DNA from: Leucoraja erinacea
Taxonomy: Eukaryota
Reading direction: 5' to 3'
Assembly (NCBI RefSeq): GCF_028641065.1
Contig: NC_073393.1
Coordinates: 15,934,001 to 15,998,000 of the forward strand
Length of the DNA: 64,000 bases
Part shown: positions 5,927 to 51,883 of the stretch, piece after piece
How the letters are laid out: the number at the start of each line of letters is the position of its first letter
How positions within the stretch are numbered: the first letter of the stretch is position 1
The notes under the pieces: model-generated
The model's input: only the letters and a program-made list of their open reading frames with translations
What the model was told of the DNA's origin: nothing
Databases searched by the model: none
Translations under genes and position numbers: made by a program

Positions 5927-6031
5927 CTTTGGCAGAGCTTGATCCAAAAACAATTCTCAAGGTAGCCAACACCAGTAGAATGATCAATGTACCTCCTACA
6001 TTGCGAAGGACAAGGACAACGCTGGCCGAAC
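5927..6031 (-). CDS. Receptor gene A exon 4: transmembrane exon containing Arg (GSASVVLVLRNVGGTLIILLVLATLRIVFGSSSAK)
   Basis: Acceptor tttttacgtctgcag, donor G|gtgaat, 105 nt, phase 1-1. Aligns with paralogous TM exons at the VGG motif. Not in the ORF track. Confidence 0.82.
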
Positions 6032-6349
6032 CTGCAGACGTAAAAAGTAATTGAGCAATAAGACAATTATCACAAGTGAATGAACAAACTATAGAATTGG
6101 ATTTGTGTAAAGAGCTTTATCAAGTGTCACTGTACTACAAAAAATATCCAAATAAAATAGCAATATTAGGCAAATGGACACTGTACAAAATAAACGGGAG
6201 ATCTTGCTTCCAATATGAACAATATTGTTATTGCATTATATGTCAACGAGTGATACATTTCCAAGTCAAGCTAGTGTGCAATTTGGAAGGCAGCCTGCAG
6301 GCCGTGGTGTTCACATGCACCTGCTGCCCTTGTCCTTGTTGGTGATCCA

Positions 6350-8555
6350 ACCTGTCCAGAAATCTATAAATGTCAATCCTCACTTTTCAAACATCTGCAA
6401 CGCGTCGAGGTAGGGAATTACAAAGATTCACTCATCTCTGAGAAGAGTCATACAGTCACAGAATGATACAGTGTGGAAACAGGCCCTTCGGCCCAACTCG
6501 CCTACACCGGCCAACAATGTCCCTGCTAACCTAGTCCCACTTGCCTGTGCTTGGTCCATAACCCTCCAAACATTTCCTATCCATGTACCTGTCCAACTGT
6601 TTCTTAAACGATGGGATAGTCCCAGCCTCAACCACCTCCTCTGGCAGCTTGTTCCATACACCCTCCACCCTCTGTGTGAAAATGTTACCCCTCGGATTCC
6701 TATTAAATCTTTTCCCCTTCACCTTGAACCTATGTCCTCTGGTCCTCGATTCCCCTACTCTGGGTAGAATCTGTGCATCTACCCGATCTATTCCCCTCAT
6801 AATTGTGTACACTTCTATAAGATCTCCCCTCATCCTCCAACGCTCCATGGAATAGAGACCCAGCCTACTTAACGTCTCCCTATAGCTCACACACTCTCTA
6901 GACCTGGCAACATCATCGTAAATCTTTTCTGAACCATTTCAAGATTGACAATATCTTTCCTATAACATGGTGCCCAGAACTGAACACTATATTCTAAATG
7001 TGGTCTCACCAACGTCTTATACCACTGCAACATGACCTCCCAACGTCTATACTCAATACTCTGAATGATGAAGGCCAAAGTGCCAAAAGCCGTTTTGACC
7101 ACCTGCGATTCGACCTTCAAGGAACCATGCACTTGTACTCCTAGACCCCTCTGCTCTACACCACTAGCATTTACTGTTTAGGTCCTGCCCTTGTTCGACT
7201 TCCCAAAATGCAACACCTCAAACTTCTCTGTATTAAATTCCATCAACCATTCCTCTGCCCACCTGGCCAAGCGATACAGACCCTGCTGCAATCGTTCACT
7301 TCCATCTTCACTATCTGCAAAACCACTAACTTTTGTATCATCAGCAATCTTGCTAATCTTGCCCTGTTTGTTCTCATCCAAATCATTGATGTAGATGCCA
7401 AACAGTAACGGGCCCAGCACCAATCTTCCACTAACACTCTATTTTCTTCCATGGAGCTAATTTACTATCCATTCAGCTATCTCTCCTTAGATCCCACGAG
7501 ATCTAACCTTCCAAAACAGCCAACCATGCGGTACCTTGTCGAATGCCTTATTAAAATCCATGCACACAACATCTACCCCTCTGCCATCATCAACCTTTTT
7601 GCCCACGTTTTCAAAAACAATCAATCAGATTGTGAGACACCACGTCCCACGTACAAAACCATGCTGACTGTCCCTAATCAGCCCATGCCCATCCAAATGC
7701 ATGTATAACCTATCCCTCAGAATACTCTACAGTAACTTATCAACTACAAATGTTAAGCTCTCCAGCCTATAGTTCCCAGCATTTTCCCTGCAGTCCTTCT
7801 TGAAAAGAGGCACAACATTTGCCACCCACCAATCCTCTGGCACCTCTCCTGTATTTAAGGACGACATACATTTCATCCAGGGCCTCCGCAATTTCCTCCC
7901 TTGTTTCCCGCAATGTCCTCTGATATATCCGACCAGGCCCCAGAGATTTGACTACCTTCAAACACGACAGTACCTTTAGTACTTCCTCGACAGTACTTCC
8001 TCGATGCTCTCATGACACTTCCAGTAACTGCTCCAATTTCCTCCATCCTACTGTTTTCTCCTTGGTAAATGCAGAGGAGAAATACTCTTTGAGGACCTTA
8101 CCCATCTCCTGTGGCTCCACACAGAGGTGACCGCTTTTATTCCTGAGAGGTCCCACTTTCTCTCTGGTTATCCTTTCCCCCCTTATGTTTTTACAAAATC
8201 TTTTCGGATTGTCTTTTATGGTACCCGCCAGAGCTATCTCCTGGCCAATTTTTGCCCTTCTGATCTCCTTTTTTAGTTTGCTCCTTATTTCCCAAAACTC
8301 CTCCAGGGATGCACTTATCCCAACTGCCTTTACCTGTCCCATGCATCCTTCTTGTTTTTGACTAACGTCTCAATTTCCCTCGTCAGCCAAGCTTCTTTAC
8401 GTTTGCCTGCTTTGCCTTTCACTCTAACGGAGACGTACACACCCTGAGCTCTCTACAGCATACGTTTAAAAACATCCCACTTGGCCGATGTTCCTTCCCC
8501 CTCAAATAACATGCCCCAGTCAAGTTGAGCTAGACCTTCTCTCATACCCTCAAAA
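6350..8555 (-). mobile_element. CR1 LINE, about 2.2 kb of ORF2, in the gene A C1-TM intron
   Basis: ORFs [35 protein letters not shown]. Confidence 0.9.
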
Positions 8556-8902
8556 TAGTGAAATATCTCAACATTGCAAAGTAAATTCCCGACTATATAT
8601 AAAGAACGTGTACCTCTATCCCCATCTCACTGATTGTGTCTTTTTGATTATTTTTTTTGTTTGCTAACATCTCTGACAGCCTTGAAGGTTTAGCCACGTC
8701 ACAGACACTATAAATATTGAAGATGCAGATATAATTTAGAAAACAGATGAGAGCATATGATACGTCAGTTTGCCCGAACTCCCGCGGCGAATAAACACGG
8801 TCCACATTCAGCCCGTCTAGTCGTGTTTGAGCTGTATCCATCAATATTTCTAAATCGGATCGGAGGTCTCCCTCTGTTCCCAGCTCTGTTTGCCAGTCTT
8901 AC

Positions 8903-9193
8903 CTGGCTTGACGGTGTAGTCGACTCTGGCCGGGACCGCAAGGGAGACATGTGACACTAGGCAGGTGTAAATATCAACGCGCCAGGTAGGCTTCGTTACT
9001 TGGAGAAAGCTGGAAGCCACATGCAACCCCTCCACGCTACTGATGTTCACACGTTCTTCCCCGGTGGAAATTGTTACACCATTTCTTTGCCAGGATATTT
9101 TGACTTCCTTCGGGGAAAAGGCAGCCGTTTTACACACAAGTCTGGGCGGCGAACTGCCATTAACTTGGCTAATGCTCAGGGGAGTTGGCGGAG
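8903..9193 (-). CDS. Receptor gene A exon 3: C1-set Ig domain
   Basis: Acceptor ttctgttacag, donor G|gtaaga, 291 nt. C1 signature LVCKTAAFSP..WQRNG..YTCLVSHVSL. Confidence 0.92.
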
Positions 9194-11703
9194 CTGTAAC
9201 AGAAGAAAAATATGTTGCATATTTTCTTTCCAATTCAACGATAACATTCTAGTTTGCCTCGTCACACCGCGACCTGGCACTCCCACCATCAGATCGGTTA
9301 TCGGTACAATCGCTTTTGCACTCACTGATTTGTCATTGTTTTAGATTTGACAGTGAAATATATCCAAGCAATCCATAAGGAATCCGAGGTTTGGATGTAG
9401 GTAATATGTGGGCTTCTGAACCATCGCCAATGTTCTGAAGTGCCAAATCAGTAGCGTGGAGGGGGGTGTATAATCGCTGGCAACAACTTTTTATGTTCAG
9501 TTCAAAAATGACTGTTTTTACGAGATTTTGGTGTAAAGAATGATACGTGTAGAGTGGAATATCACAGAGATACACAGCACAGCACAGAGCAGCACAGATG
9601 ACCTATTGCGTCATTAAACCTCCATCTCCACGTATTCATTTTTCATCTCCTGTCAACTTTCCTCTTCACTCCTCACCACGACCAATCAACCGGGACAATT
9701 TACAGAGACTAGTTTTCCTACCAACCTGCAGATGTGTGGCATGCGGAATAAACCGGAGCACCGGTGGGATGTCTACGCGTTGAAGGGGAGAACTATATAT
9801 GGACGCACGCAGGATCCGGGTCGAACTTGGGTCGCTGAAATTGTGGGCAGCGCTAACCAATGTAGCGCTGTATATATCCAGATGTCACCAATATCAATAA
9901 TCAAGAGGAAGGCCGTAGTTGCGTAGATGAAAGCTTGGGCCACACAATTGTTTAATACCTGGGATGGAGGGCTCAAGTGATACAGCTTTTGGCCCGGGAC
10001 GTTTCTCCATAACGCTAACTGAGCAATTTGAGCATGATAGAGTTATACGAATAATTATTAAGAAGAAAATGCAGATGTCTGGAGAAGGATCTCGACCCAT
10101 TCCTTCTCTCCAGAGATGCTGCCTGTCCCGTTAAGTTACTTCAGCTTTTTGTGTCTATTTACTGATAATTAGTATCGCGTTGCAAATATTAGACACTTCT
10201 TCAATAAGTACAATACGCGAATGGGAAATCCAAATTAGACTACGTCTCTTCTACAATGTTGCCATTTTCCAAATGTACTCGGTTTGTTGAAGACGTTTGG
10301 TCTGAATGAGATTTCACATATCAGCACAGAGCTGACGCTGATCTACCTCCGGCGGATCTATAATCAGTAGCTAGTTAGTAGGAGGCCTCTTGTTAAATCG
10401 CTCTACGAGTTGATGACTACGAGTTTAATAAGTTTTAAATATTTTTACATTCCGTTTCTTTAGTAACAGGTTGTTGGATCGGTTTCTTTATTGAACTCGG
10501 AGGAGACCTCGATGCTTATTCTCAGCCTCGGCGAGTGCATCATCAGCTAAAACGTAAAATTAATCTGTGGCACGAACATAGATCTATTTAGATAGAATGA
10601 ATAATTGGGGGGAAACGTGGAGAGACTGATTCTTGTGGGAAACGTGGTTGAGTCATGTAAGAATGTAATTGTAAGGACGGGAGCTCAGGCGTTTGCCCCA
10701 ATGCCGTTTAATCTTACTCGTATTTTATAAAGGTTAAGGGTTTAATGAGAATCCTCGGAGTGAGACGGTGATATTCTGTCCCTGGAGTAAGAATCTAGAA
10801 ATCAAACCTCTCAACGGTTTATAGGATTCATCTGTATAGTAACCATGGTGGTTTGATCCGGGGTTCAGCTTCGTTTACAGCCGACGAATAAGAGTAGAAT
10901 ATTTAAGGCCGAGGCCGCTCCGTTGTTCAATTCAATCGTGGGTGGTTTGTGCGTCAGGTCTCTGTGTCACAAACCCTGTTGTCACATACCCCACGATACC
11001 TAATCTAAATGAATATTCTAACATCCCAATCTCGAGAGATCGATTTATTTTCTTGTTTCCAGACTTTAAGTGATTAAATGATTACAGATTTCGGAGATAA
11101 TTTGTAAGGTGGCGCGTAAAAAGCGAAAATTATGTGTGAATCAATATGGACTGCAAACACTATTCTTATGAGATTGTAACCACTATTGGCGTAGAGTGGT
11201 GGCGTTTGAATATTGTTTTAAAGAGCCTATCCAGGATGGAGGTGTTAAAATTATTCCGTTGTCTTCGGGAGCAGAAATGGGACATTCTTATCACAACTGA
11301 GATTAAAACATCCACGTGGCTTCAACATTTTCCATGAAAAACAATTCTAAACAACCTTTTAATCTAAGTCATTTGATGTAAATACATTCAAGCACACCAT
11401 GGAGGGTAGTAAAGGGTGAATCTGAATCGTGGGCAATAACGCCAAAGTGGACAGCGCGAATCTGCAGGAGAGCAATGGAAAATCTCTGGAGAAGTACGAA
11501 ATGAGGAAAAGGACATTTTCTCTCTACACAGATGCTGACCCACTTACGGATTATTTAAATATATCAGATTTGGAACGGTTTTTGTTTTTATAGTATAAAT
11601 CTTATCGAGTTTTTGCCGAGTTATAAAATGTCATGTTATTCATATCAGCGAGCTTTACTTGTACCCCAGGAAGCTTAAAATGTCTCCCTTACAGGGCACT
11701 TAC

Positions 11704-12009
11704 CGAACACGGTGAGCCTTGAGCCAGGTCCATCTCCGATAGATTGCTGCTGTTGTTTCAATTTACAATAATAAACTCCGGAGTCCGCGATTTTCGTATT
11801 CAGGAGAATGAAATCCGCACTGCCCTTTCTGATAGAAAATTGTTTTCTGCTGTCTGGTTCTATAAATGTCTTCTCGCCCCATCTCCACCAAGAAACAGCA
11901 GGAGTAACTTGTTGTATTGAGAATGTGCAGAACATGGACGCATTGCCTCCTCTGTGGACGGTCAGGTATTTAGGGAATTGGTCCACTTTGGTTGAAGTTA
12001 CTTCGAAGG
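11704..12009 (-). CDS. Receptor gene A exon 2: germline-joined VJ-type Ig domain (NKp30/NCR3-like)
   Basis: Acceptor ttatttctggcag, donor G|gtaagt, 306 nt, phase 1-1. Motifs VDQFP, MFCTF, VSWWR, DSGVYYC and J-like IGDGPGSRLTVF. Confidence 0.92.
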
Positions 12010-12402
12010 CTGCCAGAAATAAAACAAGAATACTGAAAACAGTTGGCCATCCGGACAAGCAAAATGAACAAAGAGTTGAAAAATTCAAAATAAACTAGAA
12101 TCGGCCATAAATGAATTAAGAAGCACTGTAACTAAATCCGTGCTTGGTAACCAACATAGAATATTCTAAGGTGATACAAGGAACTGGTTTACAAAAAAAG
12201 ACACCGAGTGCTGGAGTAACTCAGCGGCCAAGAGTCTTCTTTAGATTCTGAAGTAGTTTCGACCCGAAACGTCACCTATCCACGTTCTCCTTAGATGCTG
12301 CCTGACCCACGGAATTACTCCAGAACTACATGTCTTTTTTAAAAATAGAATATTATAAAACATGACATGAGATTCGGAAACCCCACATGTATCTAAACGT
12401 AC

Positions 12403-12457
12403 CGTGCCAAACTGTAGCCAGAAGAGTCATGTATCGAACTGATGCTCCAAACGACAT
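12403..12457 (-). CDS. Receptor gene A exon 1: leader/signal peptide MSFGASVRYMTLLATVWH
   Basis: ATG at 12457, 55 nt, phase-1 donor G|gtacgt. Same length and homologous to the leaders of genes B and C. Confidence 0.8.
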
Positions 12458-13039
12458 TTTGCAAAATGAGGTGGTCGCTTGCTGCAAATGAGGAAGCCTC
12501 TTCAAAGATTCGTGTATTTCATGACGCCGGATATCATGTGACAGTGCAGTGGGTTTCATATTTAGTTTTATTTTAAGGCATCCCATCTCATCTCCCAGGT
12601 GAAACATTTATGCTTGATGTAGAATTTTCTCCTAGACCTCCCGGGAGCACTAAAGAATCCCGAGAGCAGAAGCTATCACTAATTGAATTACACAAACAAA
12701 ATGGAGACACGAGGAACTGCAGGTGTTGGGACTGAATGAAGGGACCCGAAACGTCCATATTACCGTTATATTATTCCAGTACTTTTCTAACACAAACAAA
12801 ATTCCGTTCTTCCGTGTATTTTACTAGTTTTCTCGTTCCACGTAAATTATTTTTGTACTGCTCGACGGACCCAACAAGCTATCCAGCACCTATAGAGCAA
12901 ATGGGTACCTCTAATCTGCTGTGTTCCTTCAGCAAAGACCAGAATGCTGGAGGAACTCAGCGGGTCAGGCAGCATCGGCGGAAGGAATGGACAGACGATA
13001 TTTTAGATCGCGAACCTTGCCCTGTTCGCGAAGGCCAGC

Positions 13040-13220
13040 TGGAGCTCTGGGTTGCTAACCAATTGAACGTACCTTTTCCTTCCCATACCGACCTTTCCGT
13101 CCCTTCCGTCCCCCACTGCCAGAGTGAGACCAACACACAAACTGGAAGACCAGCACTTTACATTTCACTTGAGTAGCTTACAAACTAATGGTTTGAACAT
13201 TATATTTTCAAATTTCAGGT
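13040..13220 (+). mobile_element. Penelope-like GIY-YIG 3' fragment
   Basis: Similar to the 53.8-54.5 kb Penelope copy (..KLEDQHF.FHLSSLQ). Confidence 0.5.
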
Positions 13221-13239
13221 ACTACGATACGATACAATG

Positions 13240-15500: not shown

Positions 15501-15504
15501 ATAA

Positions 15505-22758: not shown

Positions 22759-22869
22759 TCAACTTCTCGCTTTCTTTGAAACCTTTGCGTGTTTGCCGTT
22801 TTGCTTAGTTGTTGATTTGTTATTAGTTGGGAAGATGCGGAACAGCTTGTTGGCTCCCCCTCCTTTAGT
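22759..22869 (-). CDS. Receptor gene B terminal exon homolog without tyrosine motifs (phase 0: TKGGGANKLFRIFPTNNKSTTKQNGKHAKVSKKARS*; spliced directly from a TM exon it gives D*)
   Basis: The acceptor region (attacttccacag) and 5' end match gene C's last exon (attactttcgcag|AATAAAAGAGGTGGA). Confidence 0.55.
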   Translation of the reverse strand, partial: TKGGGANKLFRIFPTNNKSTTKQNGKHAKVSKKARS

Positions 22870-23817: not shown

Positions 23818-23919
23818 CATGTTGTGCCGTCCATGCTAATCTGGTCAAAATTATAATCGAAAGTAAAATTACCAACCCGCCCACTGCACGTGTGAGAATC
23901 AGTCTTTTATAGGTACTTT
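23818..23919 (-). CDS. Receptor gene B second TM exon b, with Arg (ESTYKRLILTRAVGGLVILLSIIILTRLAWTAQH)
   Basis: Codon-for-codon paralog of TM exon a. Acceptor tttttcacctaatccag, donor G|gtaaga, 102 nt, open, phase 1-1. Not in the ORF track. Confidence 0.78.
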
Positions 23920-24756
23920 CTGGATTAGGTGAAAAATAAGAAACCGTAAGACATATTAATTATACAGGGAGTAAAAGCTAATAAGGCAGAGCATTGAAAA
24001 GTAACGCTCCAACCCACCAAAAAATATTGTAGGAAATACATATTGCAACAATTATGGGTTAATGTTTTAATTATCAAGCAAACGCGTCACTTTACAAAGT
24101 AGCTCTTTCTGTAGGGGATAATTGATTAAGGTTAAGAAGAGATTTATTTTTTCATATTGTTACACTAGACATCAGTTTAAAAAAAAACAGAAGCATTGAA
24201 CAGTATAATTTGTCATCGATCCACATAATAGGACATGCGTGCAGACGCCGTGAAGATGTAACGACGTATTTTAGCAATGGGTGATGTAAAAGAGGGGGTT
24301 AAGAGTGAATTCGAGAACTAGGGACACACGCACATGCCACTGTCTGCGATCATGCTCACAACCGTGGTGTCGTCTACAAATTTGTAGATGGATATTGAGC
24401 CGAATCTGGCCGCGCAGTCCTATAAACTCACGATTGTTTACTATGAAATAAGCCGCACATAAATTCAGGTTGTTAATTCATCTCAGTCGGGATGCATTGA
24501 ATGAGGTATTAGTTTTTGAGCTGCTTGCACGTTGGTCTTTCATCACAAATAATACAATTCACACTTCTATCTCTCGTGTTTGAACAACTACGCAGCTGTA
24601 TTTCTAATCTGATGTAGAACTCGTTTAAAATGCTTCCTGCATTTCCTCGTTTGACCAAATAGTTGAAACTGGAAGGAACCTTTAAGGGTTATATGTGATG
24701 CCAGGGAGGTGTGGGGCAGATGAAATAATTTTCTATTCAGATTCAGTGTTTGACTG

Positions 24757-25125: not shown

Positions 25126-25233
25126 CCGGTTGCGCCTTTAATCCGAATCTTGTGAAAAATATGATCAGAATCACAATTACTAGTCCGCCCACTACACATC
25201 CAATAATTTGTGTTTTGTCAGTGGTTTCTGGAT
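25126..25233 (-). CDS. Receptor gene B TM exon a, uncharged (DPETTDKTQIIGCVVGGLVIVILIIFFTRFGLKAQP)
   Basis: Acceptor tgtttcgccag, donor G|gtaaga, 108 nt, phase 1-1. Confidence 0.88.
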
Positions 25234-27212: not shown

Positions 27213-27509
27213 CTTGCTCGACAATGTAGCTGAAACTGGCAGGGGCTGTAAGAGATACGTGGGATACCAGGCAGGTGTAAACAGTTTTGCCTGGCGCAGG
27301 CTGCGTGTCGTGCAAAAAACTGGAAGCCTCATAAAGTCCATCCGCTGTTCTGTTTCTCACGGTTTCAATGCCGGTCAAAATTTCCACGTTGTTTCTTTGC
27401 CACATTACGTCTAATTCCATTGGATAAAACGCAGCCGTTTTACACACGAGTTGCGGCAAATGCGGTGCACTTCCTTCAATAGCAACGATTTTCAATGGAG
27501 TTGGGGGAG
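27213..27509 (-). CDS. Receptor gene B exon 3: C1-set Ig domain
   Basis: Acceptor ttgttccag, donor G|gtaagc, 297 nt. LVCKTAAFYP..WQRN..YTCLVSHVSL. Confidence 0.92.
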
Positions 27510-28702: not shown

Positions 28703-28999
28703 TTAACACAATTAGCTGGGAGCCAGTTCCATTGCCGATAAGTTGCAGTTGATATTTCACTCGACAGTAATACATCCCGAAGTCTGCGACACTCACATTC
28801 AGCAAAGTAAATGTACTGCTTCCCTTGTCTACTTTGAATTGTTTTCTGCTGTCCGCTTCCATAAATGTATTCTCGTCCCCTCGCCACCAAGAAACGTCAG
28901 CGGTTTCTTTTAATATCGGAAATTTGCAGAACATGGAATCACTTCTGCCCCTGGAGACCCTCAGGATTGCGGGGAATTGTTCCACTTTGCTCGAAGTTG
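28703..28999 (-). CDS. Receptor gene B exon 2: germline-joined VJ-type Ig domain
   Basis: Motifs VEQFP, MFCKF, VSWWR, DFGMYYC, IGNGTGSQLIVL; donor A|gtaagt. The acceptor homologous to A and C reads AC (29010-29009), so the next in-frame AG (29001-29000) is used here. Confidence 0.88.
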
Positions 29000-35822: not shown

Positions 35823-35960
35823 TCAGTTACACGTCTTTTTTGAAGTATTCACATCAGCGTACACCGTGTATTTGTTGTTCTGTTTGGATGCTGATGTTTT
35901 CTTGGGGTTGTGATGTTGCACAGTTGCGTAGGTCAGCTTGTCATGTCCACCTCTTTTATT
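35823..35960 (-). CDS. Receptor gene C exon 7 (last): ITIM LTYATV and ITSM-type TVYADV
   Basis: Acceptor tactttcgcag. NKRGGHDKLTYATVQHHNPKKTSASKQNNKYTVYADVNTSKKTCN*, TGA at 35825-35823. The seven exons sum to 1047 nt (348 aa plus stop). Confidence 0.85.
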   Translation of the reverse strand, partial: NKRGGHDKLTYATVQHHNPKKTSASKQNNKYTVYADVNTSKKTCN

Positions 35961-36799
35961 CTGCGAAAGTAATTAATGATCGGTGATTAGACAATCATTC
36001 AGTGACGAATTTGAGCATACTGCTTTAAAATAATATTTTATGCAACCCATCAGTTGTTATTTTTACAATGGTATTGATTTGCAGATTTATTTTTGGCTAT
36101 ACCTTTCTGCTTGATATTGAGTTTAAACGCGAGGAGCTGTTCTTGTCCCACAAAAGAATTATTTTCTTTTTCTTTTATGTCAACTTCGACGTAATTACGT
36201 TAGGAGAATTGGTGAATGCTCAAAATTGTATCCGCAGTATTAAATATTTGGCATAATACGAAGCCCCTTTTAAAGTGTATTTGTGGGATTGGCGGGAATC
36301 CATTTTGCCTGTCGAGCCCAAGAGGTGGTTCGCAGACTGAAGCTACCGGTACCTCTCCAATAGACACCGCGGCTCACGGCTTCATCAGTGGCACCGAAAT
36401 GCAATAGAATATAAGTTGGTACTACTTCCTATAGCTCTGCGTCCCCAGTTGTTGACACGAGTCCCCTATTCGGTGGATAATTTGAACGGCCTGTTTACTC
36501 TCTTTTCCCAGGCCATTGTCTTGCATTTGTATTTAGTTTCGCCCTGATTATGAGAACTGGGTAGGTTTGTGTGTTCCTAGCTTCCCACCCTTTGTTTATT
36601 CACATACAATTTACATTTGAATTTAAACCCGAATAAGGAAAGGAAAATTATATTTATGCTCTGATGTGCAGCGGGTGATAGGTTTTATTTAAATGAAGAT
36701 TTGCTATTGTGCACATATTTTCCCTGCAGTTTGGAAAAAGCAACTACATTTGGAACAATGCTCATTCCATATCTTAATTACGCTGTCCAAGAGCATTAC

Positions 36800-36910
36800 C
36801 TGTGAATAGGCGACATGTTGTTCTTCTTGTAGACCATTTGAAAATCCTTTGCTCTCGCTTAAATTCAGCGTAGCATAGGCAGCGGCATGTTCAATTGGTG
36901 CTTGTCTCAC
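36800..36910 (-). CDS. Receptor gene C exon 6: cytoplasmic, tyrosine motifs AAYATL and VAYSQ
   Basis: Acceptor ttttctaatag, donor CAG|gtaatg, 111 nt, phase 0-0. VRQAPIEHAAAYATLNLSESKGFSNGLQEEQHVAYSQ. Confidence 0.82.
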
Positions 36911-37059
36911 CTATTAGAAAAGTACATTTAATACTGCGGGTGACCAGGCTTATATAGCTGATATGGCACTAGAACTGTAACTGGGGCTGAAAATCGATGC
37001 ACGGGGGATATAGAGGAATAGATTAACATTTCACTTGCTTTCAATGATATTACCAACTA

Positions 37060-37710
37060 TGTCATTTCAAGGAAGGGGGTGGATAATGGCGTTGGTCGAG
37101 TTTCCTGGCGATAAACATCACCAATAATTTGCACTGGTCCAACCACATTAATTCTAACGCCATGAAAGCACACCGTTGCCTCGACCTTCCCAGAGGACCA
37201 AGGAAAGTTGGACGGTCTCCAAAGTCTCTTCCCAAATTCCACAGCTGCACTGTCGAAATAATTATATGGGGATGAATCCCAAATTGGTTTAGCGACAGCT
37301 TTGCCCAGGACCTTAAGAAACGCAGGAACCTGTGATTGCAGCCCAGCCAACCACGTAAACAAGCTTCCGTCATTCTCTCCTCTTCCCTCGGCGGACAGAA
37401 TACACAATAGGTTTAAATCTCCTTGTGTAAGATTTAAAAACAGCTTTATACTCGATGTTATCAAGTTACTAAACAGGCGTCGCGCAAGCTAATGGTGCAA
37501 TCCTGATCTGTGATTTACCTCGTTCTGGTCCTTGCGTTTTTAAAATGTGCACTCTCTCTTTAGCTGTAACACAATATTTTGCATCCTGTGTCATTTCCCT
37601 TTTTGCACTTGGGTATGGTTAGATTGTACCCATACATGGTATCCATTTTCCGGATTGCACGCAAAATAAAGTTTATAATTGAATCTCGGTGTACATGACA
37701 ATAATTAACC
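37060..37710 (+). mobile_element. Rex1/Babar LINE degraded 3' fragment in a gene C intron
   Basis: FLAINITNNLHWSNHI..; 3' end gtacatgacaataatt. Confidence 0.65.
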
Positions 37711-38407
37711 AGTGCCAATACGAATATCAGTCTTTTGCAGATTTTGGAGATTTCTTCTTCTAAGCATTGCAGAGTGGAAGATGCATTTATGGGATTCCAT
37801 TTAGCAGCCAGCACAAAATAGTAATTTTGTGGCAAGCAGTTTCGATGCCACGTAGGCCATATCCGGTGAAATGGCCCTTCGTTAAGGATCGAAGCCAAAA
37901 CTGCAATTAACACGTTAAAGAACGGCTCAAGAAAGCAAATTAAATTCTCGACAAAGGTTCTTTTCATTTTTATTTTAATTACCGTGCTTTGGAATTCAAT
38001 ATAACTTTTGCCTTACGGATTGATTGTTGCACTTACTCTCCCATTGGTCAGCAACCCACAATCTCTTCGTAGTCTGATATTTGATACGTTCTCACTATCT
38101 AAAATTATATTTTAAAGTGTACTTGAACTAATACCCCCAGAACTAATAAAAGCTCATATTTTCATCCTAAACATCACTTTAGAATAAATTAGGATATGAT
38201 CTGGCATGGAATTGACAAAAGATGTTGAAGCAGATACAACAGGAATTTTCAAATTATTAGTGGAGGTATACTTGACGTAACCTGAAAAATAAATAATGGT
38301 TTCATCCTGCCCTAGAATATTCCACGATACTATAGAATAAAACTGATTTATAATATTTCTGCTACGAATAATCCCTATCTTGAAACAACAGGAGACATTT
38401 CACATAC

Positions 38408-38451
38408 CGGCTCCCCGTTCGGACGTATGCCTACAGAGGTTACGTTATGGC
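38408..38451 (-). CDS. Receptor gene C exon 5: short cytoplasmic exon (GHNVTSVGIRPNGEP)
   Basis: Acceptor tttcattcctctag, donor CCG|gtatgt. Its 44 nt convert phase 1 to the phase 0 needed by the next exon. Confidence 0.75.
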
Positions 38452-39097: not shown

Positions 39098-39196
39098 CGT
39101 GCCACATCTTTAAACTGAGTCTTATCACGATTATAATCAGAATTAAAATTACTGATCCACCTACTGCATATACGATAATCTGTTTGCGACCAATTC
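39098..39196 (-). CDS. Receptor gene C exon 4: uncharged transmembrane exon (GIGRKQIIVYAVGGSVILILIIIVIRLSLKMWH)
   Basis: Acceptor atccaccag, donor G|gtaaga, 99 nt, phase 1-1. Paralog of the other TM exons. Confidence 0.85.
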
Positions 39197-39726: not shown

Positions 39727-40020
39727 CTTGGCCCAGGGTATAACTGAAACTGGCCGCCACCTTCAGGGAGACATGTGATACCAGACAGGTGTAAATATCT
39801 TTGCCCTCCCCAGGCTGCGTTATTTCCAAAGAACTAGTAGCCACAAACAATCCTTCTTCGCTTAGATTTTTCACAGTTTCGATTCCAGTGCGAATTTCCT
39901 CGTTATTTCTTAGCCAGAATATTTCTAATTTCTCCGGATAAAAGGCGCCAGTTTTGCACACAAGTTTCCGTGGAGATCCAAGTCCTTCAGCAGGAACAAT
40001 TGTCAAGGGAGTTGGGGGAT
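39727..40020 (-). CDS. Receptor gene C exon 3: C1-set Ig domain
   Basis: Acceptor tttctttgcttaag, donor G|gtaaga, 294 nt. LVCKTGAFYP..WLRN..YTCLVSHVSL. Confidence 0.92.
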
Positions 40021-42862: not shown

Positions 42863-42917
42863 CCTGCGTTAGTATGACCAGAAGAGCCATGGACCAAACT
42901 CTAACTTTCACCGACAT
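42863..42917 (-). CDS. Receptor gene C exon 1: leader MSVKVRVWSMALLVILTQ
   Basis: ATG at 42917, 55 nt, donor G|gtatag. Homologous to the A and B leaders. Confidence 0.8.
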
Positions 42918-44214
42918 ATTACAAGAATAAATTGTCAACTTGTTGTTAGTTTACTCAAAACTTGCTCTGCGGAAAAGGAAATTATGAGTAAATATATGAA
43001 ACGTGTCCGTGACGTAATATATCCCACGACTGTGGCTCGTGCGGCGGGAGAGGTCATAGCTCGGCCCATTCCCATTGTAACAAAGCCTTCCAATACTTCC
43101 TGAATTGGATATATGTTTGTATTGTTTTTATGGTGGTGGGTTCTGGCTTGTTTTATTGTAGTGTAAATATTATTTTTAATAATTGAATAAATTTTGTTGG
43201 AATAAAAAAATAATAATTAAAAAAAAATACTTCCTGAATCATGTTCACAACCTCCTCCCGTAGCATCCAGATTTTTACTCGGAATTAAATTTGCATCAGC
43301 TGCCTACTCAGTTAATTGTCACAAATCGTTTCCGCGTAGAAGGTAAGGAGTGCTTGTGAATATTTAGATGCACAAACGTAGACACCCACCTTCCTTTGAA
43401 TCTCCCCCCCCCCCCCCCTTCCCAATTTGTGTTGTGCTCTTTCGCTCTTTCGATTATATACATTCAAACAACAATCACCCATTTCGTTTCTTCCTGTTCA
43501 GCCCTCACCATCGCCATCCGCAGCTTTCTATTGATTATGTTTCCATCTGACGTTTTTCACACTAACTCCGGTTGCTATTCCTACAAAACCAAATCTCCAT
43601 ACTGGTTTTTGTTAACTAATATTTCTACTATTTTCATAAACACCATTGCAGCAATATTCTATGGGGAGTCCAGCAGAAAATTGGCGCCAAGCCGCGACAG
43701 CTAACGTATGAACGAAATCTAGGTTTTTTCTTCCGATAATGCACAGTAGATCAATCAACTTATGCTGTTGACATCCACACAACACAGGAGAATAGGGGCT
43801 GTAAATTAATCGAATGGGCCAATATAAATTAGGGAGATTTAAACCAAACTGTTAATCTTATAATTTCCTCCAAAGTATTGTTTTAAAAATCGTAGAAATG
43901 AAGGGTTACTTAAAGTTTGGACTACAGGCAAGAAGCCAACGTTGTGAGCGAGGCGGTTTGAACTCTTTATGTTTTCCCCGTATCGTGGTTATACTCACAT
44001 TCCTCTGCACAAATCAATGATTTTGGCTTCAGAACACACATTAAATTGCACGAGCAGAAACCTGTTGTAGACCAAATGGTTAAGTAATTTTCGTGTAATT
44101 TAAATGTTTGATGCGCCTCACTTAGAGACCTTGTGCCGTTCAATGGGAGGACATAATATTCCAAATATACACAGTAATTCTCTGGATATTTTTTAAATTA
44201 CTGAAATCGGGCAG

Positions 44215-44515
44215 GACCGTATCGCAGTAGTAGAGTTGCTGCACTTACAGCGCCAGAGACCTGGGTTCGATCCCGACTGCGGGTGCTGTCTGTATGGAGT
44301 TTGTACGTTCGTCCCATGACTGGCTTGGGCTTTCTCTGGGCGCTCCGGTTTCCGCCCACATTCCAAAGACGTACATGTTCGTAGGTTGATTGGCTTCGGT
44401 AAAGATTGTAAATTGTCCCTAGCGTGCAGGATAGTGCTAATGTACGGGGTGATCGCTGGTCGGCGCGGACTCGAAGGGCCTGTTTCCGCGCTGTATCTCT
44501 AAACTATTGCTAAAA
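44215..44515 (+). mobile_element. tRNA-derived V-SINE-like element; further copies at about 46185-46490 (+) and 57240-57500 (+), degraded copies near 9600-9870 and 23040-23310 (-)
   Basis: B-box gggttcgatccc, central tggagtttgtacgttc..tccggtttcc.cccaca domain, CR1-like 3' end. Confidence 0.75.
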
Positions 44516-44959
44516 AAACTGCTTCTGTAAATGGCTTCTATTTGAACTTCCATGTAAAGATTGCGTAATTTCGGGTTTAAGTCTGTCCACATTAACCGTT
44601 CAAACGAAGAGCTGCAACAAGAACATTCCGGTTTGTGATGCTGGTCTTGAAGATAATGAAGACTGGACTCAGATTTAAAGCGGCACGTTGTTTCTTTTTT
44701 AGTGAAGTCAGCAGTGTAAAGAAACCAGCGGCAGTTCGAGAAAACCTCAGTACACGGCAAATCTGACAAATTAAGGATTTCTGTGCATGTTTGCAAGCTA
44801 CTGTCAGCGAAGGGCTGTTCTGCAACAATGGACCAATAATAATCTTACAAAATGGATTTGAAGAATTTTATTTGCCACATTTTGAGGAAATGCATCGGTA
44901 TATTCCCATTGTTTAATAGAAAAGAATATTGTGATACCGCAAGCGAAAACTGAAAAAGA

Positions 44960-45660
44960 TCATAGAAACATAGAAACATAGAAATTAGGTGCAGGAGTGG
45001 GCCATTCGGCCCCTCGAGCCTGCACCGCCATTCAATATGATCATGGCTGATCATCCAACTCAGTATCCCGTACCTGCCTTCTCTCCATACCCTCTGATCC
45101 CCTTGGTCACAAGGGCCACATCTAACTCCCTCTTAAATATAGCCAATGAACTGGCCTCAACTACCCTATGTGGCAGAGAGTACCAGAGATTCACCACTCT
45201 CTGTGTGAAAAAACGTTCTCCTCATCTCGGTTGTAAAGGATTTCCCCCTTATCCTTAAGCTGTGACCCCTTGTCCTGGACTTCCCCATCATCGGGAACAA
45301 GCTTCCTGCATCTAGCCTGTCCAACCCCTTAAGAATTTTGTAAGTTTCTATAAGATCCCCTCTCAATCTCCTAAATTCTAGAGAGTATAAACCAAGTCTA
45401 TCCAGTCTTTCTTCATAAGACAGTCCTGACATCCCAGGAATCAGTCTGGTGAACCTTCTCTGCACTCCCTCTGTGGCAATAATGTCCTTCCTCAGATGTG
45501 GAGACCAAAACTGTACGCAATACTCCAGGTGTGGTCTCACCAAGACCCTGTACAACTGCAATAGAACCTCCCTGCTCCTATACTCAAATCCTTTTGCTAC
45601 GAAAGCCAACATACCATTCGCTTTCTTTACTGCCTGCTGCACCTGCATGCCTACCTTCAA
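44960..45660 (-). mobile_element. Young CR1 LINE 3' portion with intact reading frame
   Basis: 164-aa [35 protein letters not shown]; (CATAGAAA)n tail. Confidence 0.92.
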
Positions 45661-46896
45661 TCATGTTTGCATTATTAATTTAACTTCGATTAAATGGTTC
45701 CAAAATGGCTCCTATATTTTTAAAGTTTCATTAAATTAGATTAATTTAGTAAACAGGAGGCGCGGAAAGCTTTGGGCAACATAATTTTGTTTTCCATAAC
45801 GTTAGACCCTTACATTGTTGATGACGCCATCGCAGATGCGTTTTCCAAATATTATTAACAATGCCCGATGGGAATAATTGGTTAGATTGCGTTTTTATTC
45901 TCCTTTCGACAAGATGTGTTGGATTGCCATTAACAAGAAAATACTGTTTTCTCCCGTTCGGTGGAAATGACTGGAATCCTGCAACAGGTCAGATTGCGAA
46001 ATAGAACTAACGTCTCGAGTTGATCATTTCTGTTATAATATAGAAATATTTACTGTTTCTCTTTCTCCACAGATTGTCCTCGACGCCTAGAATTCACAAT
46101 ATTTCGTGATTAATTTCAGATTACAAAGTATCCGCAATCTAGCATTATCCAGTGATTATCTTGCCACAACTTTGTTTCCAAGTGATCGCAGCGGTAGAGT
46201 TGCTGCCTAACAGCACTTGCAGCGCCGGGGACCCGGGTTCGATCCCGACTACGGGGACTGTCTGTACGGAGTTTGTACGTTCTCCCCGTGACCGCGTGGG
46301 CTTTCTTTCTCCGGTTTCTTCCCACACTCCAAAGACGTGCAGGCATGTAGGTAAATGGCTTGGTAAATGTAAAAAATGTCCCTAGCGTGGGTAGGATAGT
46401 GTTAATATGCGTTGATCGCTTATCGGCGCGGACCCATTGGGCCGAAGGGCCAGTTTTCGCGCTGCATCTCTAAACTAAATTAAACAAAACTGGAATTTAG
46501 ATGTAGACTGAAGATGTAAATGCACTAAATGCATATCTCCGACGGTCATCAATTGCGAGATATTGCCAGTCCATCTGCATTCTCCTTATCCATTCGAGCG
46601 GCCCCTAAAGTCTATGAACTTTATAGTTAATGCCAGCAAGTTGCCTCTAATTACAGGCGATATCTTCTTATTATCAATAGAATCATCACAACTTGTCAAA
46701 TGTTGTATGGAATACGAACTAAGCGCACCCACATAGGTCAAGTGCACAGGGGTAGTCTGACCAGTAACCCTCACGGATATATTTCAGCTCCTCTATGCCG
46801 GAGAGGCACCACACGTCTCTGCTCTTCTGAGCAAAAGTGACAACGCGTCAACCATATTAAATACCCGGGACTCCAAGCAGGCAAGAATGATGAAAC

Positions 46897-47045
46897 AGGT
46901 ATATGGACGGAAATGAATGGAGGGTTATGTTCTGAGTGCAGGTAGATGGGACTAGGTGACAGTAAGTGTTCGGCACGGACCAGAAGGGCCGAGATGGCCT
47001 GTTTCCGTGCTGTAATTGTTATATGGTTATATTATATGGTTATAT
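46897..47045 (+). mobile_element. CR1 3' UTR fragment
   Basis: Matches 3500-3640. Confidence 0.75.
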
Positions 47046-47531
47046 TTAAAAATCAGCCATTTAATTGCCATGAAGAAGTTTACCACGTATTTATTTATTT
47101 CCCAGAACGAACACGAAATAATTAAGGAAAGAACAATAAAGGAAAGAAGGGTCTCAACCCGAAACGTCACCCATTCCTTCTCTCCAGTGATGCTGCCTGT
47201 CCCACTGTGTTACTCCAGCATTTTGTGTCTACCTGCGAAATAATGAAGATTACAGTACAATCTTAGAAATGTTTCATTGACGGAAGCGGACTTTTAAGCA
47301 ATGGTCTTAAATTAAACTTCTTGTTCTACACTTTAGTTTCTAAGATGATAACGCGAGCCGTCCGTGACTTGTTTGTTTCAGATAGGCACAGCATTCGACC
47401 GCAAGCCTTTCCATGACGTCGCCAGCAGACTCACGAGAACAGTTCTATTTTCATGCTGTGTGTTATTTCTATTTTGTCAAGCTAGAAATGCAGCGGTCAG
47501 TTAGTTAGTCAGTAGATGATTAGTTAGTCAG

Positions 47532-47723
47532 NNNNNNNNNNNNNNNNNNNNNNNNNNNNNNNNNNNNNNNNNNNNNNNNNNNNNNNNNNNNNNNNNNNNN
47601 NNNNNNNNNNNNNNNNNNNNNNNNNNNNNNNNNNNNNNNNNNNNNNNNNNNNNNNNNNNNNNNNNNNNNNNNNNNNNNNNNNNNNNNNNNNNNNNNNNNN
47701 NNNNNNNNNNNNNNNNNNNNNNN
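47532..47723. other. Assembly gap (192 N)
   Basis: N run. Confidence 1.
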
Positions 47724-47989
47724 TTTTTAGAAACGTTGCAGAAGCTCGCATGGACCCATTCGTGTTTGCTAATTACAAGCAGAAGTCTAAAATATATCTG
47801 ATTCGGAGGGCATACGCTTCGTCCTAATCGAACAAGTAAGAGGCATCTAAAAAAGCGCATAACAAGGACGGCGTATACGCATATACATAATTTAATTTAA
47901 GTATGCAGATTACTATACTAGCCATACTAGCCCTCTGGAAACCAGTCCCTTCAGACCACAACACCATACTAGCGCTCCAGAAAGCCCCC

Positions 47990-48135
47990 CACCCCACTGG
48001 CCACCAATATTGGTATTTGTTGAGAGGTGGGTTACTTGAAGTTGGAGGTCAATATTCATACCGCTGTGGGGTAAGCTTCCCAAGCGAAATATTCGGTGCT
48101 CTTCCTCCAATTTGCACTGAGCCCCACTCTGATGG
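47990..48135 (-). mobile_element. Penelope-like GIY-YIG 3' fragment
   Basis: KLEEEHRIFRLGSLPHSGMNIDL. Confidence 0.6.
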
Positions 48136-49481
48136 GGGTGTTAAAGTGTTTAGTAATGGGAGATCTGGTAGGTTTATGCGGAGGTTTATGCTTCGCTACT
48201 AAACTGTGGGAAATCGATTTCCTGTGGTCATTAGGAATAGTACTTAGCGAAGAGAATTTGCAGATAATTGTCCTGGTCAATCTTGTGGATATTTGATTTT
48301 GAAATAAATTATCTAGATTTGCAGGTATGTGGCCCGCTGCTTGAGTCGGTGGCACAAGTTCATGGAAATTCGGGTGTCAGGGGTTATGGGGAGAAGACAG
48401 GAGAGTGGAGTTAGGAGGGAGAGATAGATCACCCATGGTTGAATGGCGGAGTAGACTTGATGGGACGAATGGCCTAATTCTATTCCTACCACATGACCTT
48501 ATGACAGGTTAAACTCATTCACAAGAGTTAATGTTATTAAACTATCCACAAGAGCAGTAGATTATAATTTCAGATAAGGGGAAATCGAGCTATTGAGAAG
48601 CGAGAAGGGAAAGGCAAACACGACTAAATTGCCACATTATCCCAAGAGCAAGAGTATACATATGGCCTGTGGCACACTCTGGCATTCACATTATTTCACT
48701 ATGTCATAGGTGCATCAGTGGAAAGAATCATAAACAGTTTGCAATTTGTGCATAGTCTTGATATTATTAAGTTGCATCACCATCCAGTGTGGACGATTTA
48801 ATTCACACCTTTAGTTGAATACAGCACAATGGATTTGATGTAAACAAAAATCTGCCCATGTAAGTGACCAAGTGACATACATTTCTGAAGGTCAGTCTGA
48901 AGACGGGATCCAATCCGCAAGATCGTCTCTCCATTTCCCTCAACAGATTTAGCCTGCCTGCTGATTTCATGCAGTTCAAGATTCCAGCACCTTCAGTCTC
49001 TTGTGACACCATATATTATTTCGTAATGAATTATCAGGATCTATTGAAAATCATAATTCATCCAAGACGAATCAATCGTATTTGATTAAATAACATTAGT
49101 TTCCCATCTATTTATCGGATTGATTTCATAATGGGACGTACAGGATGAATACAGTGACAAGTGGGGCGCACTGTTTCAGCATCCAGAACACAGTCCGCAG
49201 GGAGCTGCATGGACGGTTACTACACATTAAGATATTTGAGACTGTCATTGCTGGGATCTTGAGAAAAACAGCAAAGCGGTGGAGGAACTCAGCAGGCGAG
49301 GCAGCATCTGTGGAGGGAATGGGCAGACGACGTGTCAGGTTAGAACCCTTCTTCAGAATAGTGTGCATTAAGCTGGAAGATAGCTGGGGTGGGACAAAAC
49401 CGATCCAGTGATAGGTGGATGCAGTTGATGGGTGAAATTGTCATGTTGAGAAGGCGGCGGTTGTATATGTAAGAAGGGAAG

Positions 49482-49496
49482 GGTGTGTGTGTATGC

Positions 49497-49547
<51 letters not shown>

Positions 49548-49593
49548 TATGCGCGCGTTTCTATGTGTTTTTCGCCGGGTGGGGGGGGGGGGG

Positions 49594-49626
<33 letters not shown>
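49482..49626. repeat. (GT)n microsatellite followed by poly-G
   Basis: Read directly from the sequence. Confidence 0.95.
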
Positions 49627-49628
<2 letters not shown>

Positions 49629-50402
49629 GGATCTCAGAACACGAGCGCTCAGTCCGCCAAGGTCTGCTGGTGCTTCCAGTCACTACATGCTGATGCACGT
49701 ACTGATTTGTTTTGCTTTACACGTGGACCATATGAAGTTGCCAACAGTAATGTCTGGGCAAATGGAACCATCCGTGCAGAACTTACATATTCTGTTCCAC
49801 TGTAGGTGGCTATGCCACTGGCGTCACTGAGGCGCTTTGCTCCGCCAGGCTATCATCACATGACTGACTAATTCCATTTCATTACAAGTGTATTCATTAG
49901 TGGTGCACTTGATTGGTTGATGGGTTTCTTCAGATTTCCTTCTCTGGTTTGTGTTGACGTTAGTGTATTTCGAAACAAATGAGAGGACAAAGGCTCAGGT
50001 GCATTGAAAAAGCATGGAATTTAATGAAGGGAAAATATATTGGTTGCACAACTGAATAATCGGCGGGTTTTTTTTAATCAGACATCATTAAGTGACATGT
50101 TATCACGAACGGACGTGGCCATAGTTTCTTCACAAAGCACCAGCGAAATTATTCACATTTGAGAACAGAAGTAAAATAAACAAACACGATCTTTAAAATT
50201 TACAACAAATGCAAACTGGCACGTTCATCCCTGCTTTCAGAAAGTGTTGGATGCTTGTTAGATGATGGTCACTTACACCAAAACATTGACTCAATGCAGG
50301 TGAAAACGACCTGCAGCTCCAACGATTGTTACCATGGGAGTTCATTAGCTTGGCTGCAATGATCATAACGTAGCAATATTTCCGCCTGCAATTATTCACA
50401 GT

Positions 50403-50552
50403 CTACAGCTTCGATTTCCAGCTTCGCTCCTTCTTTAAAACATTTCCATCTGCATAAGGTACATGTTCCTCTTTCTGGTTAAATGTTACTGCTGATTGGA
50501 GTTGAGTAACTGCAAATCGACATGATACAACCTAAAATTTATCATCTTTAGT
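50403..50552 (-). pseudogene. Receptor gene D degenerate terminal exon (early stop; remnant EEHVPYADG where gene C has TVYADV)
   Basis: The acceptor context actaatggccgatataaattactttcacag|ACTAAAG is nearly identical to gene B's. Phase 0 reads TKDDKF*, phase 1 reads D*. Confidence 0.55.
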
Positions 50553-51784
50553 CTGTGAAAGTAATTTATATCGGCCATTAGTCAATTACCCTCTGGTGGC
50601 ACAAAGAATACGATTTTGAAACAAAATACTGCCAGTCTCATAGAGAATGTATATACATTTCAGGATTCATACTCATCCATGAGACTGCACCAACGTGCAA
50701 ACAAATATGGAATTGCTATCCGTCATCTTTAATGATACACGGGCACGGGATTAAAAGTGCTTCACTGCAAGTTGGGGAACTGCTTCTAATGAGTTGAGAA
50801 AACAGTAGTTTATTCTAAAACTGCATTGCGCGCTACTGCTGGGGTGGATTATTCTGTGTTTTAGTGTTGTTTCGTTGAGTTAGCGATCTTCCAGTGATCT
50901 GCCAGTAGCAAATTGTTATCAGATTTTTTTTTTGCCATTCTTCACTAATTTCCTTTCCCTGATTTCACTTAGTGTTGATCTTCGGTGCTACTAATCATTC
51001 CTGGCCCACAGAACAACATTAGCTTTCTTCGTTATTGCCGATCATTTGTATGAACGTAAATGGAATCTGCTTTAGGGGGCAGACGAATAGTAGATTTAAA
51101 GTAGCAAACATTTAATATTACGTATTAAAAATGCTGATAATGCAAAGTACAATTTTAAGATTCGCTGATAGACCGTTTAACCTATATTGCCATGGGGTAG
51201 ATGCTACATTGAACCTGCCTACACAATTGTCAGGAAATCAATGGTCGCTCGGAAATAGAGTTGTTTATAGTGTCCTTGGGCTGAAATCATCCAACATGGT
51301 GTACTCTACTTATCGAGACCACACACAAGATTAGAAGTTATTCAACCAGAGCTGAACACACGTCTCGGCATCTGCATACAATGGTGGCTGCCTTGCGCAT
51401 CTTGTGCTTCTAGTGCGTGGTGGTGGGAAAGATTGGTGGAAACAGGGCCGCGACGTGCACGCTCCTTCCTTGACCCCATTGCATACTTGGTAGATTGAAA
51501 GTGTTATCACTGCACTCTGCTTAATATCCGTCGGCTTCGGCACCACTACCGAATTTCGGTGAATTCAGTAACCGATGGAGACAACAAAAATAAACGACGA
51601 TTGAAACATTGACATGGGAAGATGTAAGATTTATATCTCGAGTTTTATTTTTGTCATTGTTAATGGTCAGTTTTATTCTCAATTGTTTTATTGTTTTGCA
51701 ATCGAATAGCATTTACTGCCCTTGTTTTTTTAAACACAATTATGATTAAGACCGAGAATACCGTAAGATGTGTATAAATCTCAC

Positions 51785-51883
51785 CATTTTGTGCCTTTAA
51801 TTGGAGCCTTATCAAGATAATGGCCAAAACTAAAACTGCCAAGACACCCACTGCGCATCCGATAATTAGGTTTTTATCTGCAT
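51785..51883 (-). CDS. Receptor gene D transmembrane exon, uncharged (DADKNLIIGCAVGVLAVLVLAIILIRLQLKAQN); leader, V and C1 exons not in the assembled sequence
   Basis: Paralog of the B and C TM exons. Acceptor ccataag, donor G|gtgaga, 99 nt. An N gap starts 166 nt upstream. Confidence 0.78.

What the first reader, a model, noticed from the sequence alone, without database searches (positions are those of the whole stretch)
5927..51883. One TM codon toggles Arg, Cys or Tyr across the family
Seen: two codons before the conserved VG(G) motif, the five TM exons read CGC (Arg, gene A), CGT (Arg, B TM-b), TGT (Cys, B TM-a), TGC (Cys, D) and TAT (Tyr, C). These are single-base steps, and the Arg/Cys change is a CpG-type C/T transition. 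The only gene with an ITIM/ITSM tail (C) lacks the Arg. Inference: activating versus non-activating status can flip by one hypermutable base, and the Cys variants might form disulfide dimers.
Basis: partly seen in the sequence, partly recalled or inferred. Interest (0 to 1): 0.7.

Follow-up and report, generated by a model that had tools for sequence, protein, structure and literature searches.

The report
Ray paired receptors swap signalling halves
The five codons are real but are not a one-letter switch: these ray immune-receptor genes carry near-identical outer domains on either a tail with inhibitory-type motifs or a tail-less membrane segment with an arginine, so they likely work as ordinary on/off receptor pairs whose role likely changes mainly when whole gene halves are swapped or lost.

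Summary
The five codons are as described, and gene C alone has an ITIM/ITSM tail in the window. The pattern is not beyond chance: 9 of 23 membrane columns are linked by single-base steps, and gene A's exon is only 33-43% identical to the others. Cys is the family default (41 of 72 proteins from other sharks and rays; 20 of 33 with tyrosine-motif tails). None of the 72 has Arg at this column, so the CpG-decay direction (Arg to Cys) is unlikely. Arg sits one residue earlier in 12 of 72, three times next to an intact Cys. What holds: Arg lies within the predicted helix, near its outer end; a basic residue there never coincides with two or more tail motifs (0 of 33 versus 14 of 39); the genome has two zeta/FcR-gamma adaptor genes. 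Gene B shares a 97.7% identical outer half with B', which has Cys and a full inhibitory tail, while their membrane exons are only 74-75% alike: modules were swapped or lost. B' may be the other haplotype. No RNA support; the Cys dimer is untested. The scan noted this family before on other DNA.

The parts
11704..12009 (-). Gene A, V exon with joined J-like end
8903..9193 (-). Gene A, C1 exon
5927..6031 (-). Gene A, TM exon; Arg codon CGC at 6005-6003; divergent from the other four
4812..4988 (-). Gene A, two predicted tail exons (4910-4988, 4812-4821 to stop); no tyrosine
   Evidence: read from sequence and splice sites; no RNA
28703..28999 (-). Gene B, V exon (5' end approximate)
   Evidence: Pfam Ig matches
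27213..27509 (-). Gene B, C1 exon
   Evidence: Pfam C1-set
25126..25233 (-). Gene B, TM-a exon; Cys codon TGT at 25198-25196
24645..24712 (-). Dead 3' piece of a second C1 exon (one extra base, donor GT lost) between TM-a and TM-b
23818..23919 (-). Gene B, TM-b exon; Arg codon CGT at 23890-23888; open frame and intact splice sites
22759..22869 (-). Gene B, decayed last tail exon; both Tyr motifs gone; read out of frame it stops after one residue
42364..42669 (-). Gene C, V exon
   Evidence: Pfam V-set
39727..40020 (-). Gene C, C1 exon
   Evidence: Pfam C1-set
39098..39196 (-). Gene C, TM exon; Tyr codon TAT at 39170-39168
35823..38451 (-). Gene C, three tail exons (38408-38451, 36800-36910, 35823-35960) with ITIM/ITSM-type motifs
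51785..51883 (-). Gene D, TM exon; Cys codon TGC at 51857-51855
50403..50552 (-). Gene D, decayed last tail exon (stop in the old frame)
52050..52149 (.). 100-N gap that cuts gene D; beyond it the sequence restarts a second, colinear copy of the whole region

Best explanation
These genes encode non-rearranging V-C1 surface receptors of a ray or skate in which near-identical outer domains sit on different membrane-and-tail modules, so they likely act as paired inhibitory and activating receptors. Shown: the default module has Cys (also Ser, Gly, Tyr) at this column and a tail with tyrosine motifs (C here; B', A0 nearby); the other module has an Arg near the outer end of the helix and no such tail (A, B TM-b). 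Inferred: tailed forms recruit SHP phosphatases; Arg forms pair with the Asp pair of an FcR-gamma or CD3-zeta dimer and activate. Inferred: Arg was gained several times by ordinary point changes at columns -1, 0 or +2 of Cys-type exons, alongside loss of tail exons, and one older Arg module is shared among sharks. Inferred: an outer domain changes role mainly by unequal crossover, deletion or gene conversion that puts it in front of another module. Gene B looks like such a deletion product: V-C1-TM-a of one gene followed by a dead C1 piece, TM-b and last exon of a second.
For: B and B': 97.7% identical over 4.4 kb of V-C1 but 74-75% at the TM exons and 65% at the last exon; B' has Cys and three tail exons with motifs, B has none. 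Window C has the V of C'' (96% vs 85% to C') and the tail of C'; C'' lacks those tail exons and is followed by a D-type TM exon. Dead C1 piece between TM-a and TM-b. Similar pairs A/A0, and two in a second cluster 4 Mb away. Other species: basic residue in columns -2 to +3 in 0 of 33 proteins with two or more tail motifs and 14 of 39 with fewer, Fisher p=5e-5 (6 of 78 rows dropped, see full report). Arg is residue 4-6 of the best 19-21-residue hydrophobic windows in A and B TM-b. Two adaptor exons over the Pfam PF11628 cut-off, both with the TM Asp. FcR-gamma partners carry Arg in the N-terminal TM segment, and such gains arose independently several times (PMC1440944, passages). Most Arg exons are closest to a non-Arg exon, five shark ones to each other.
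Against: No RNA read fell on the B exons in the four RNA runs laid, which is no test, so exon use is predicted. Family rows are not phylogenetically independent and many database models are truncated, which inflates the 'few motifs' class. One exception in this genome: the gene at C17:20012508 has Arg at +2 and still has an intact last exon with tyrosine motifs. The TM exon tree has low support (most nodes under 75). Moving the CD89 Arg by one residue abolishes assembly (PMC13107469, passage), so Arg at column 0 need not work as Arg at -1 does. Kyte-Doolittle windows are a crude membrane model. B and B' may be alleles, not paralogues.
Confidence: 0.72

Rival explanations
1. One reading: one hypermutable CpG codon flips receptors between activating (Arg) and non-activating (Cys).
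For: Codons are single-base neighbours. B TM-b is 68-74% identical to Cys exons, so one T/C change there is plausible; a well placed Arg can be enough for assembly (PMC1440944).
Against: 9 of 23 columns show the same connectivity. Arg at this column in 0 of 72 other-species proteins, Cys in 41. CpG decay runs Arg to Cys, but Cys is the common state in distant paralogues. No pair of otherwise near-identical exons differs by R/C among 26 TM exons of this genome. CGT kept in the main contigs of X1, X2, X4.
Confidence: 0.07
2. TM-b is a relic of a deleted gene and is never spliced; gene B makes only the Cys TM-a, tail-less decoy form, and the Arg codon is neutral drift.
For: TM-b follows a dead C1 piece and has no V of its own; TM-a comes first and has good splice sites.
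Against: TM-b keeps its frame and both splice sites while the C1 piece beside it is broken. In run X4 (another organism label) the exon has 1 synonymous change in 102 bases against 13 in 319 nearby (p=0.20) or 56 in 1116 on the whole contig (two-sided p=0.08): weak. It does not explain gene A or the family-wide exclusion.
Confidence: 0.3
3. The Arg sits at the membrane surface and only anchors or snorkels; these tail-less proteins are decoys or B7-H6-like ligands, not activating receptors.
For: Automatic names include NCR3 ligand 1-like; the Arg is only 4-6 residues into the window, and B TM-b has further hydrophobic residues after the closing Arg.
Against: A surface anchor would not be excluded from all 33 tailed receptors; position matches FcR-gamma partners; the conserved closing Arg is 16 residues further on in all five exons.
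Confidence: 0.15
4. The Cys forms disulfide-linked dimers.
For: Cys is the commonest residue at the column (41 of 72), near the outer face, inside a small-xxx-small pattern (28 of 33 tailed proteins).
Against: Replaced by Ser, Gly, Tyr, Ala or Phe in 13 of 33 tailed proteins, as expected of a small packing residue; C itself has Tyr.
Confidence: 0.2

Closest known systems
FcR-gamma-coupled paired receptors (PIR-A/PIR-B, CD89, NKp46; LILRA/B recalled)
   Same: Arg in the N-terminal TM segment without ITIM versus uncharged TM with ITIMs; binding domains homogenised while signalling parts stay apart (PMC3210942 passages; PMC1440944 passages; PMC13107469 passages).
   Different: Outer part here is a joined V(J) plus a C1-set domain; ligands and cells unknown; Arg at three different columns.
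SIRP family (SIRP-alpha, -beta, -gamma)
   Same: V plus C1-set domains; tail with a similar row of tyrosine motifs; many relatives are auto-named SIRP-alpha-like; SIRP-alpha among PDB hits, E 1.8e-13.
   Different: One C1 instead of two; activating forms have Arg near the outer end, whereas SIRP-beta uses DAP12 (PMC12975943, abstract start); immunoglobulins score as well or better (7e-16); no SEP-domain gene on this contig.
NKp30 (NCR3)
   Same: Non-rearranging V with J-like end; TM Arg in the upper half, zeta/gamma adaptors.
   Different: NKp30 has no C1 exon (recalled); these genes do, and many carry ITIM tails.
B7-H6 (NCR3LG1)
   Same: V-C1-TM layout; automatic names.
   Different: Multigene paired cluster with receptor-type tails; the same family is also auto-named tapasin-, TCR-, class II- and light-chain-like, so the names carry no weight.
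Siglec-5/14 and macaque activating KIR (module exchange)
   Same: Polymorphic paired receptors; activating forms made by recombining a TM/tail region onto another gene (search listings and abstract starts only: PMC4042635, PMC8102735).
   Different: Unrelated proteins; here the exchange is inferred from one assembly.

Membership tests
Paired activating/inhibitory receptors (functional class) | Near-identical outer domains on different signalling modules | tested here: met
   B/B' 97.7% vs 65-75%; C/C'/C''
Paired activating/inhibitory receptors (functional class) | ITIM tail and charged TM residue are mutually exclusive | tested here: met
   0 of 33 vs 14 of 39; one exception in this genome
Paired activating/inhibitory receptors (functional class) | Matching adaptor with TM Asp in the genome | tested here: met
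   two PF11628 exons
Paired activating/inhibitory receptors (functional class) | Opposite signalling shown in cells | not testable with these tools
   needs experiments
SIRP | V-C1-C1 outer part | tested here: not met
   one C1 exon per gene
SIRP | Tail with ITIM/ITSM row | tested here: met
   gene C
SIRP | Activating members use a central Lys and DAP12 | tested here: not met
   Arg near the outer end; DAP12 gene not searched
SIRP | Synteny with NSFL1C (recalled for mammals) | tested here: not met
   SEP-domain matches on C4 and C21 only; BBS2 exons flank this cluster
SIRP | CD47 binding | not testable with these tools
   none
NKp30/NCR3 | Single V domain, no C1 (recalled) | tested here: not met
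   C1-set exons
NKp30/NCR3 | TM Arg in upper half | tested here: met
   A and B TM-b only
NKp30/NCR3 | MHC linkage | not tested
   no MHC search made
B7-H6/NCR3LG1 | V-C1-TM layout | tested here: met
B7-H6/NCR3LG1 | Orthology by tree or synteny; NKp30 binding | not tested
   no B7-H6 sequence was in hand
CpG-driven single-site switch | Arg (CGY) is the source state and Cys copies are scattered derivatives | tested here: not met
   Cys 41, Arg 0 of 72; TGY 13, CGY 3 of 26 exons in this genome

The most novel reading that the evidence does not exclude
Locus B is a structural polymorphism in a ray: one haplotype makes an inhibitory receptor (B'), the other makes the same binding domain without a tail and picks by alternative splicing either a neutral Cys membrane exon or an activating Arg exon captured from a deleted neighbour. 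One binding specificity would then come in inhibitory, decoy and activating forms.
Probability: 0.18. Interest if true: 0.62.

Novelty: new member of a known kind. Interest (0 to 1): 0.3.

Why it matters
It removes an attractive but wrong mechanism (a CpG on/off codon) and replaces it with the usual paired-receptor logic, here in a cartilaginous-fish V-C1 family that I did not find described in nine literature searches. If the adaptor pairing holds, Arg-to-FcR-gamma/zeta coupling and repeated birth of activating receptors from inhibitory ones go back to the oldest jawed-vertebrate lineage, on antigen-receptor-like V-C1 proteins. B/B' gives a clean natural test pair: same outer domain, three possible modules.

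Tried and rejected
Complex prediction of B TM-b with two copies of the FcR-gamma-like exon: no answer, score 0.11 against a mark of 0.34; not evidence either way. Sequencing runs: no RNA holder listed; RNA runs X8, X12, X10, X15 laid no reads on the coding exons, no test. Contig depth was not used as copy number. TM exon tree: too little support to order the exons; the direction of change rests only on residues in living copies, with no reconstruction of ancestors. Search for orthologues of gene A returned one D-like protein only. V-domain search of the PDB gave generic Ig hits, none diagnostic. NKp30 identity considered and rejected because of the C1 exon. A possible exon 105 bases after TM-b that would give one Tyr motif was seen by eye but did not pass the acceptor filter and matched no tail exon; not used. 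Papers not held: shark NCR3 paper PMC8273117, PMC3709836, PMC5207244, PMC4594805; I saw only their citations, and they may bear on novelty. Pfam did not name three of six flank exons. Earlier scan notes near this place and by sequence: none.
Full report
What the window is. The window is G000:C17:15934001-15998000. The minus strand holds three complete genes (A, B, C) with a V exon ending in a J-like segment, a C1-set exon and a TM exon, plus the 3' end of a fourth (D). The closest named proteins are from manta and devil rays, stingrays, an electric ray and a sawfish, so the source is most likely a ray or skate (inference). A C1 search of the genome gave 34 matches, 30 of them in two clusters on C17 at 15.9-16.3 and 19.9-20.1 Mb. 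BBS2 exons lie on one side.

The observation. The five codons are as stated: CGC, CGT, TGT, TAT, TGC. Only C has a tyrosine-motif tail in the window; its three tail exons join in frame. A's predicted tail has no Tyr. B and D would stop one residue after the TM exon if spliced to their decayed last exon. The single-step pattern is ordinary: 9 of 23 columns show it, and 3 of 15 columns with three or more amino acids. A's exon is 33-43% identical to the other types, close to background, and a free alignment moves its Arg to column -1.

Which state is the default. Among 26 TM exons found in the fetched clusters, anchored by motif, the codon is TGC 7, TGT 6, TAT 3, AGT 3, CGC 2, CGT 1, other 4; several are copies in a duplicated block and are not independent. 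From 171 proteins fetched, 78 passed a filter for a C1 end and a TM segment. I dropped 6: three that look like tetrapod SIRPs (my reading) and three nearly identical to this genome's genes. Of the other 72, column 0 is Cys 41, Ser 11, Gly 6, Tyr 6, Leu 4, Phe 2, Ala 2, Arg 0; among the 33 with two or more tail motifs, Cys is 20. Named examples with Cys and motifs include Mobula, Hypanus, Narcine and the shark Heptranchias. CpG decay turns CGY into TGY; here TGY is the widespread state, so the change in B TM-b most likely ran the other way (inference; no ancestral reconstruction was made). The CGT is unchanged in the covering contig of run X1, in X4 and in one exact contig of X2; two short X2 contigs carry 2 and 3 differences whose places are not listed, so variation there is not excluded.

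Where Arg really occurs. In other species Arg is at column -1 in 12 of 72, beside an intact Cys in three (named from Hypanus, Hemitrygon and Heterodontus), and at +2 with Cys in one. In this genome it is also at -1 (AGG) and +2 (AGA, CGA) in the second cluster. A basic residue in columns -2 to +3 occurs in 0 of 33 proteins with two or more motifs and 14 of 39 with fewer (p=5e-5; all 78 rows: 0 of 36 and 15 of 42, p=2e-5). The rows are related and many models are truncated, so the p-value is only a guide. One gene in this genome has Arg at +2 and keeps a last exon with motifs. Leaving out columns -1 and 0, 11 of the 20 Arg-type exons are closest to a non-Arg exon; two Mobula exons are closest to each other and then 86-89% like Gly-type exons; five shark exons are closest to each other; A and A' resemble nothing else above 36%. 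That fits repeated point gains plus one older Arg module (inference).

Is the Arg in the membrane. The best 19- and 21-residue Kyte-Doolittle windows start 3 to 5 residues before the Arg in A and B TM-b, and a conserved Arg closes the segment 16 residues later in all five exons. Receptors that assemble with FcR-gamma carry Arg in the N-terminal TM segment, position 3 in CD89, and such residues arose independently several times (PMC1440944, passages). NKp30 and NKp46 are assumed to work the same way, but shifting the CD89 Arg by one residue breaks assembly (PMC13107469, passages). The genome has two zeta/FcR-gamma exons over the Pfam cut-off, each with the TM Asp. Binding itself is inferred.

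How role changes. B and B' (C17:16.085 Mb) are 97.7% identical over 4.4 kb covering V and C1, then fall to 74-75% at the TM exons and 65% at the last exon. B' has Cys and three tail exons with motifs. In B a dead C1 piece lies between TM-a and TM-b, so TM-b and the last exon come from a second gene whose front is lost. Likewise window C has the V of C'' and the tail of C', and C'' has lost those tail exons and runs into a D-type TM exon. A (Arg, no Tyr) and A0 (Cys, Tyr-bearing last exon) share 84% of V and 92% of C1 residues. This is the known pattern of homogenised binding domains on divergent signalling parts (PMC3210942, passages).

A caution on the assembly. After the 100-N gap at 52050 the sequence restarts at the homologue of a point about 70 kb left of the window start; 108 kb align colinearly at 96.7%, including about 40 kb of flank without family genes, mostly at 97-99%. 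The second block may be the other haplotype set in tandem. Then B and B' are alleles. This is unresolved.

Known or new. It works like PIR/CD89-type paired receptors. It fails membership of SIRP (one C1; Arg rather than Lys; no SEP-domain neighbour) and of NKp30 (C1 present). Nine literature searches showed no paper on this family; I read part 1 and passages of PMC12227049 and passages of PMC10751288, PMC6795676 and PMC12272517, which do not describe it in what I saw. The shark NCR3 paper was not available, and no supplements were read. Eight earlier unchecked scan notes from other genomes describe the same family and the same paired reading, seen after my reading was fixed.

Verdict. Codons real; one-codon CpG toggle not supported (about 0.07); paired receptors with module exchange likely (about 0.72). 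Interest 0.3.

Noticed in passing
window 52050-52149 and G000:C17:15.86-16.13 Mb: The 100-N gap joins two colinear copies of a region of about 120 kb (96.7% over 108 kb); possibly two haplotypes placed in tandem.
   Followed up: partly
G000:C17:16110434-16111269 (L015): A second gene (C'') with two TM exons in a row, Tyr-type then Cys-type, made by a recent deletion.
   Followed up: partly
G000:C17:19.89-20.10 Mb (L041-L062): Second cluster of about 11 V-C1 genes with near-identical pairs that differ in TM exon (Arg at -1 or +2) and tail.
   Followed up: partly
proteins P0030, P0047, P0055, P0085, P0105, P0075: A shared shark TM type ending in a DH pair, with Arg at -1 (Gln in P0075), sits on outer domains from different branches.
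   Followed up: partly
TM columns -1 and +3: Small-xxx-small pattern in 28 of 33 tailed proteins; the common Arg replaces its first residue, which may trade self-packing for adaptor binding.
   Followed up: no
G000:C17:16073480-16073685 (L011): Broken C1 exon with a stop and a frame change between A' and B'.
   Followed up: no
G000:C17:19940306-19940650 (L046): Tail exons of one paralogue have lost three of four tyrosines relative to the twin at 19911905-19912232.
   Followed up: no
G000:C17:16.15-16.17 Mb (L020, L021) and L075-L076: BBS2 exons on the left (Pfam); exons on the right look like OGFOD1 (recalled, no Pfam match).
   Followed up: partly
G000:C13:4210633 and C24:19504147 (L069, L070): Two zeta/FcR-gamma adaptor TM exons with Cys and Asp intact.
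   Followed up: yes
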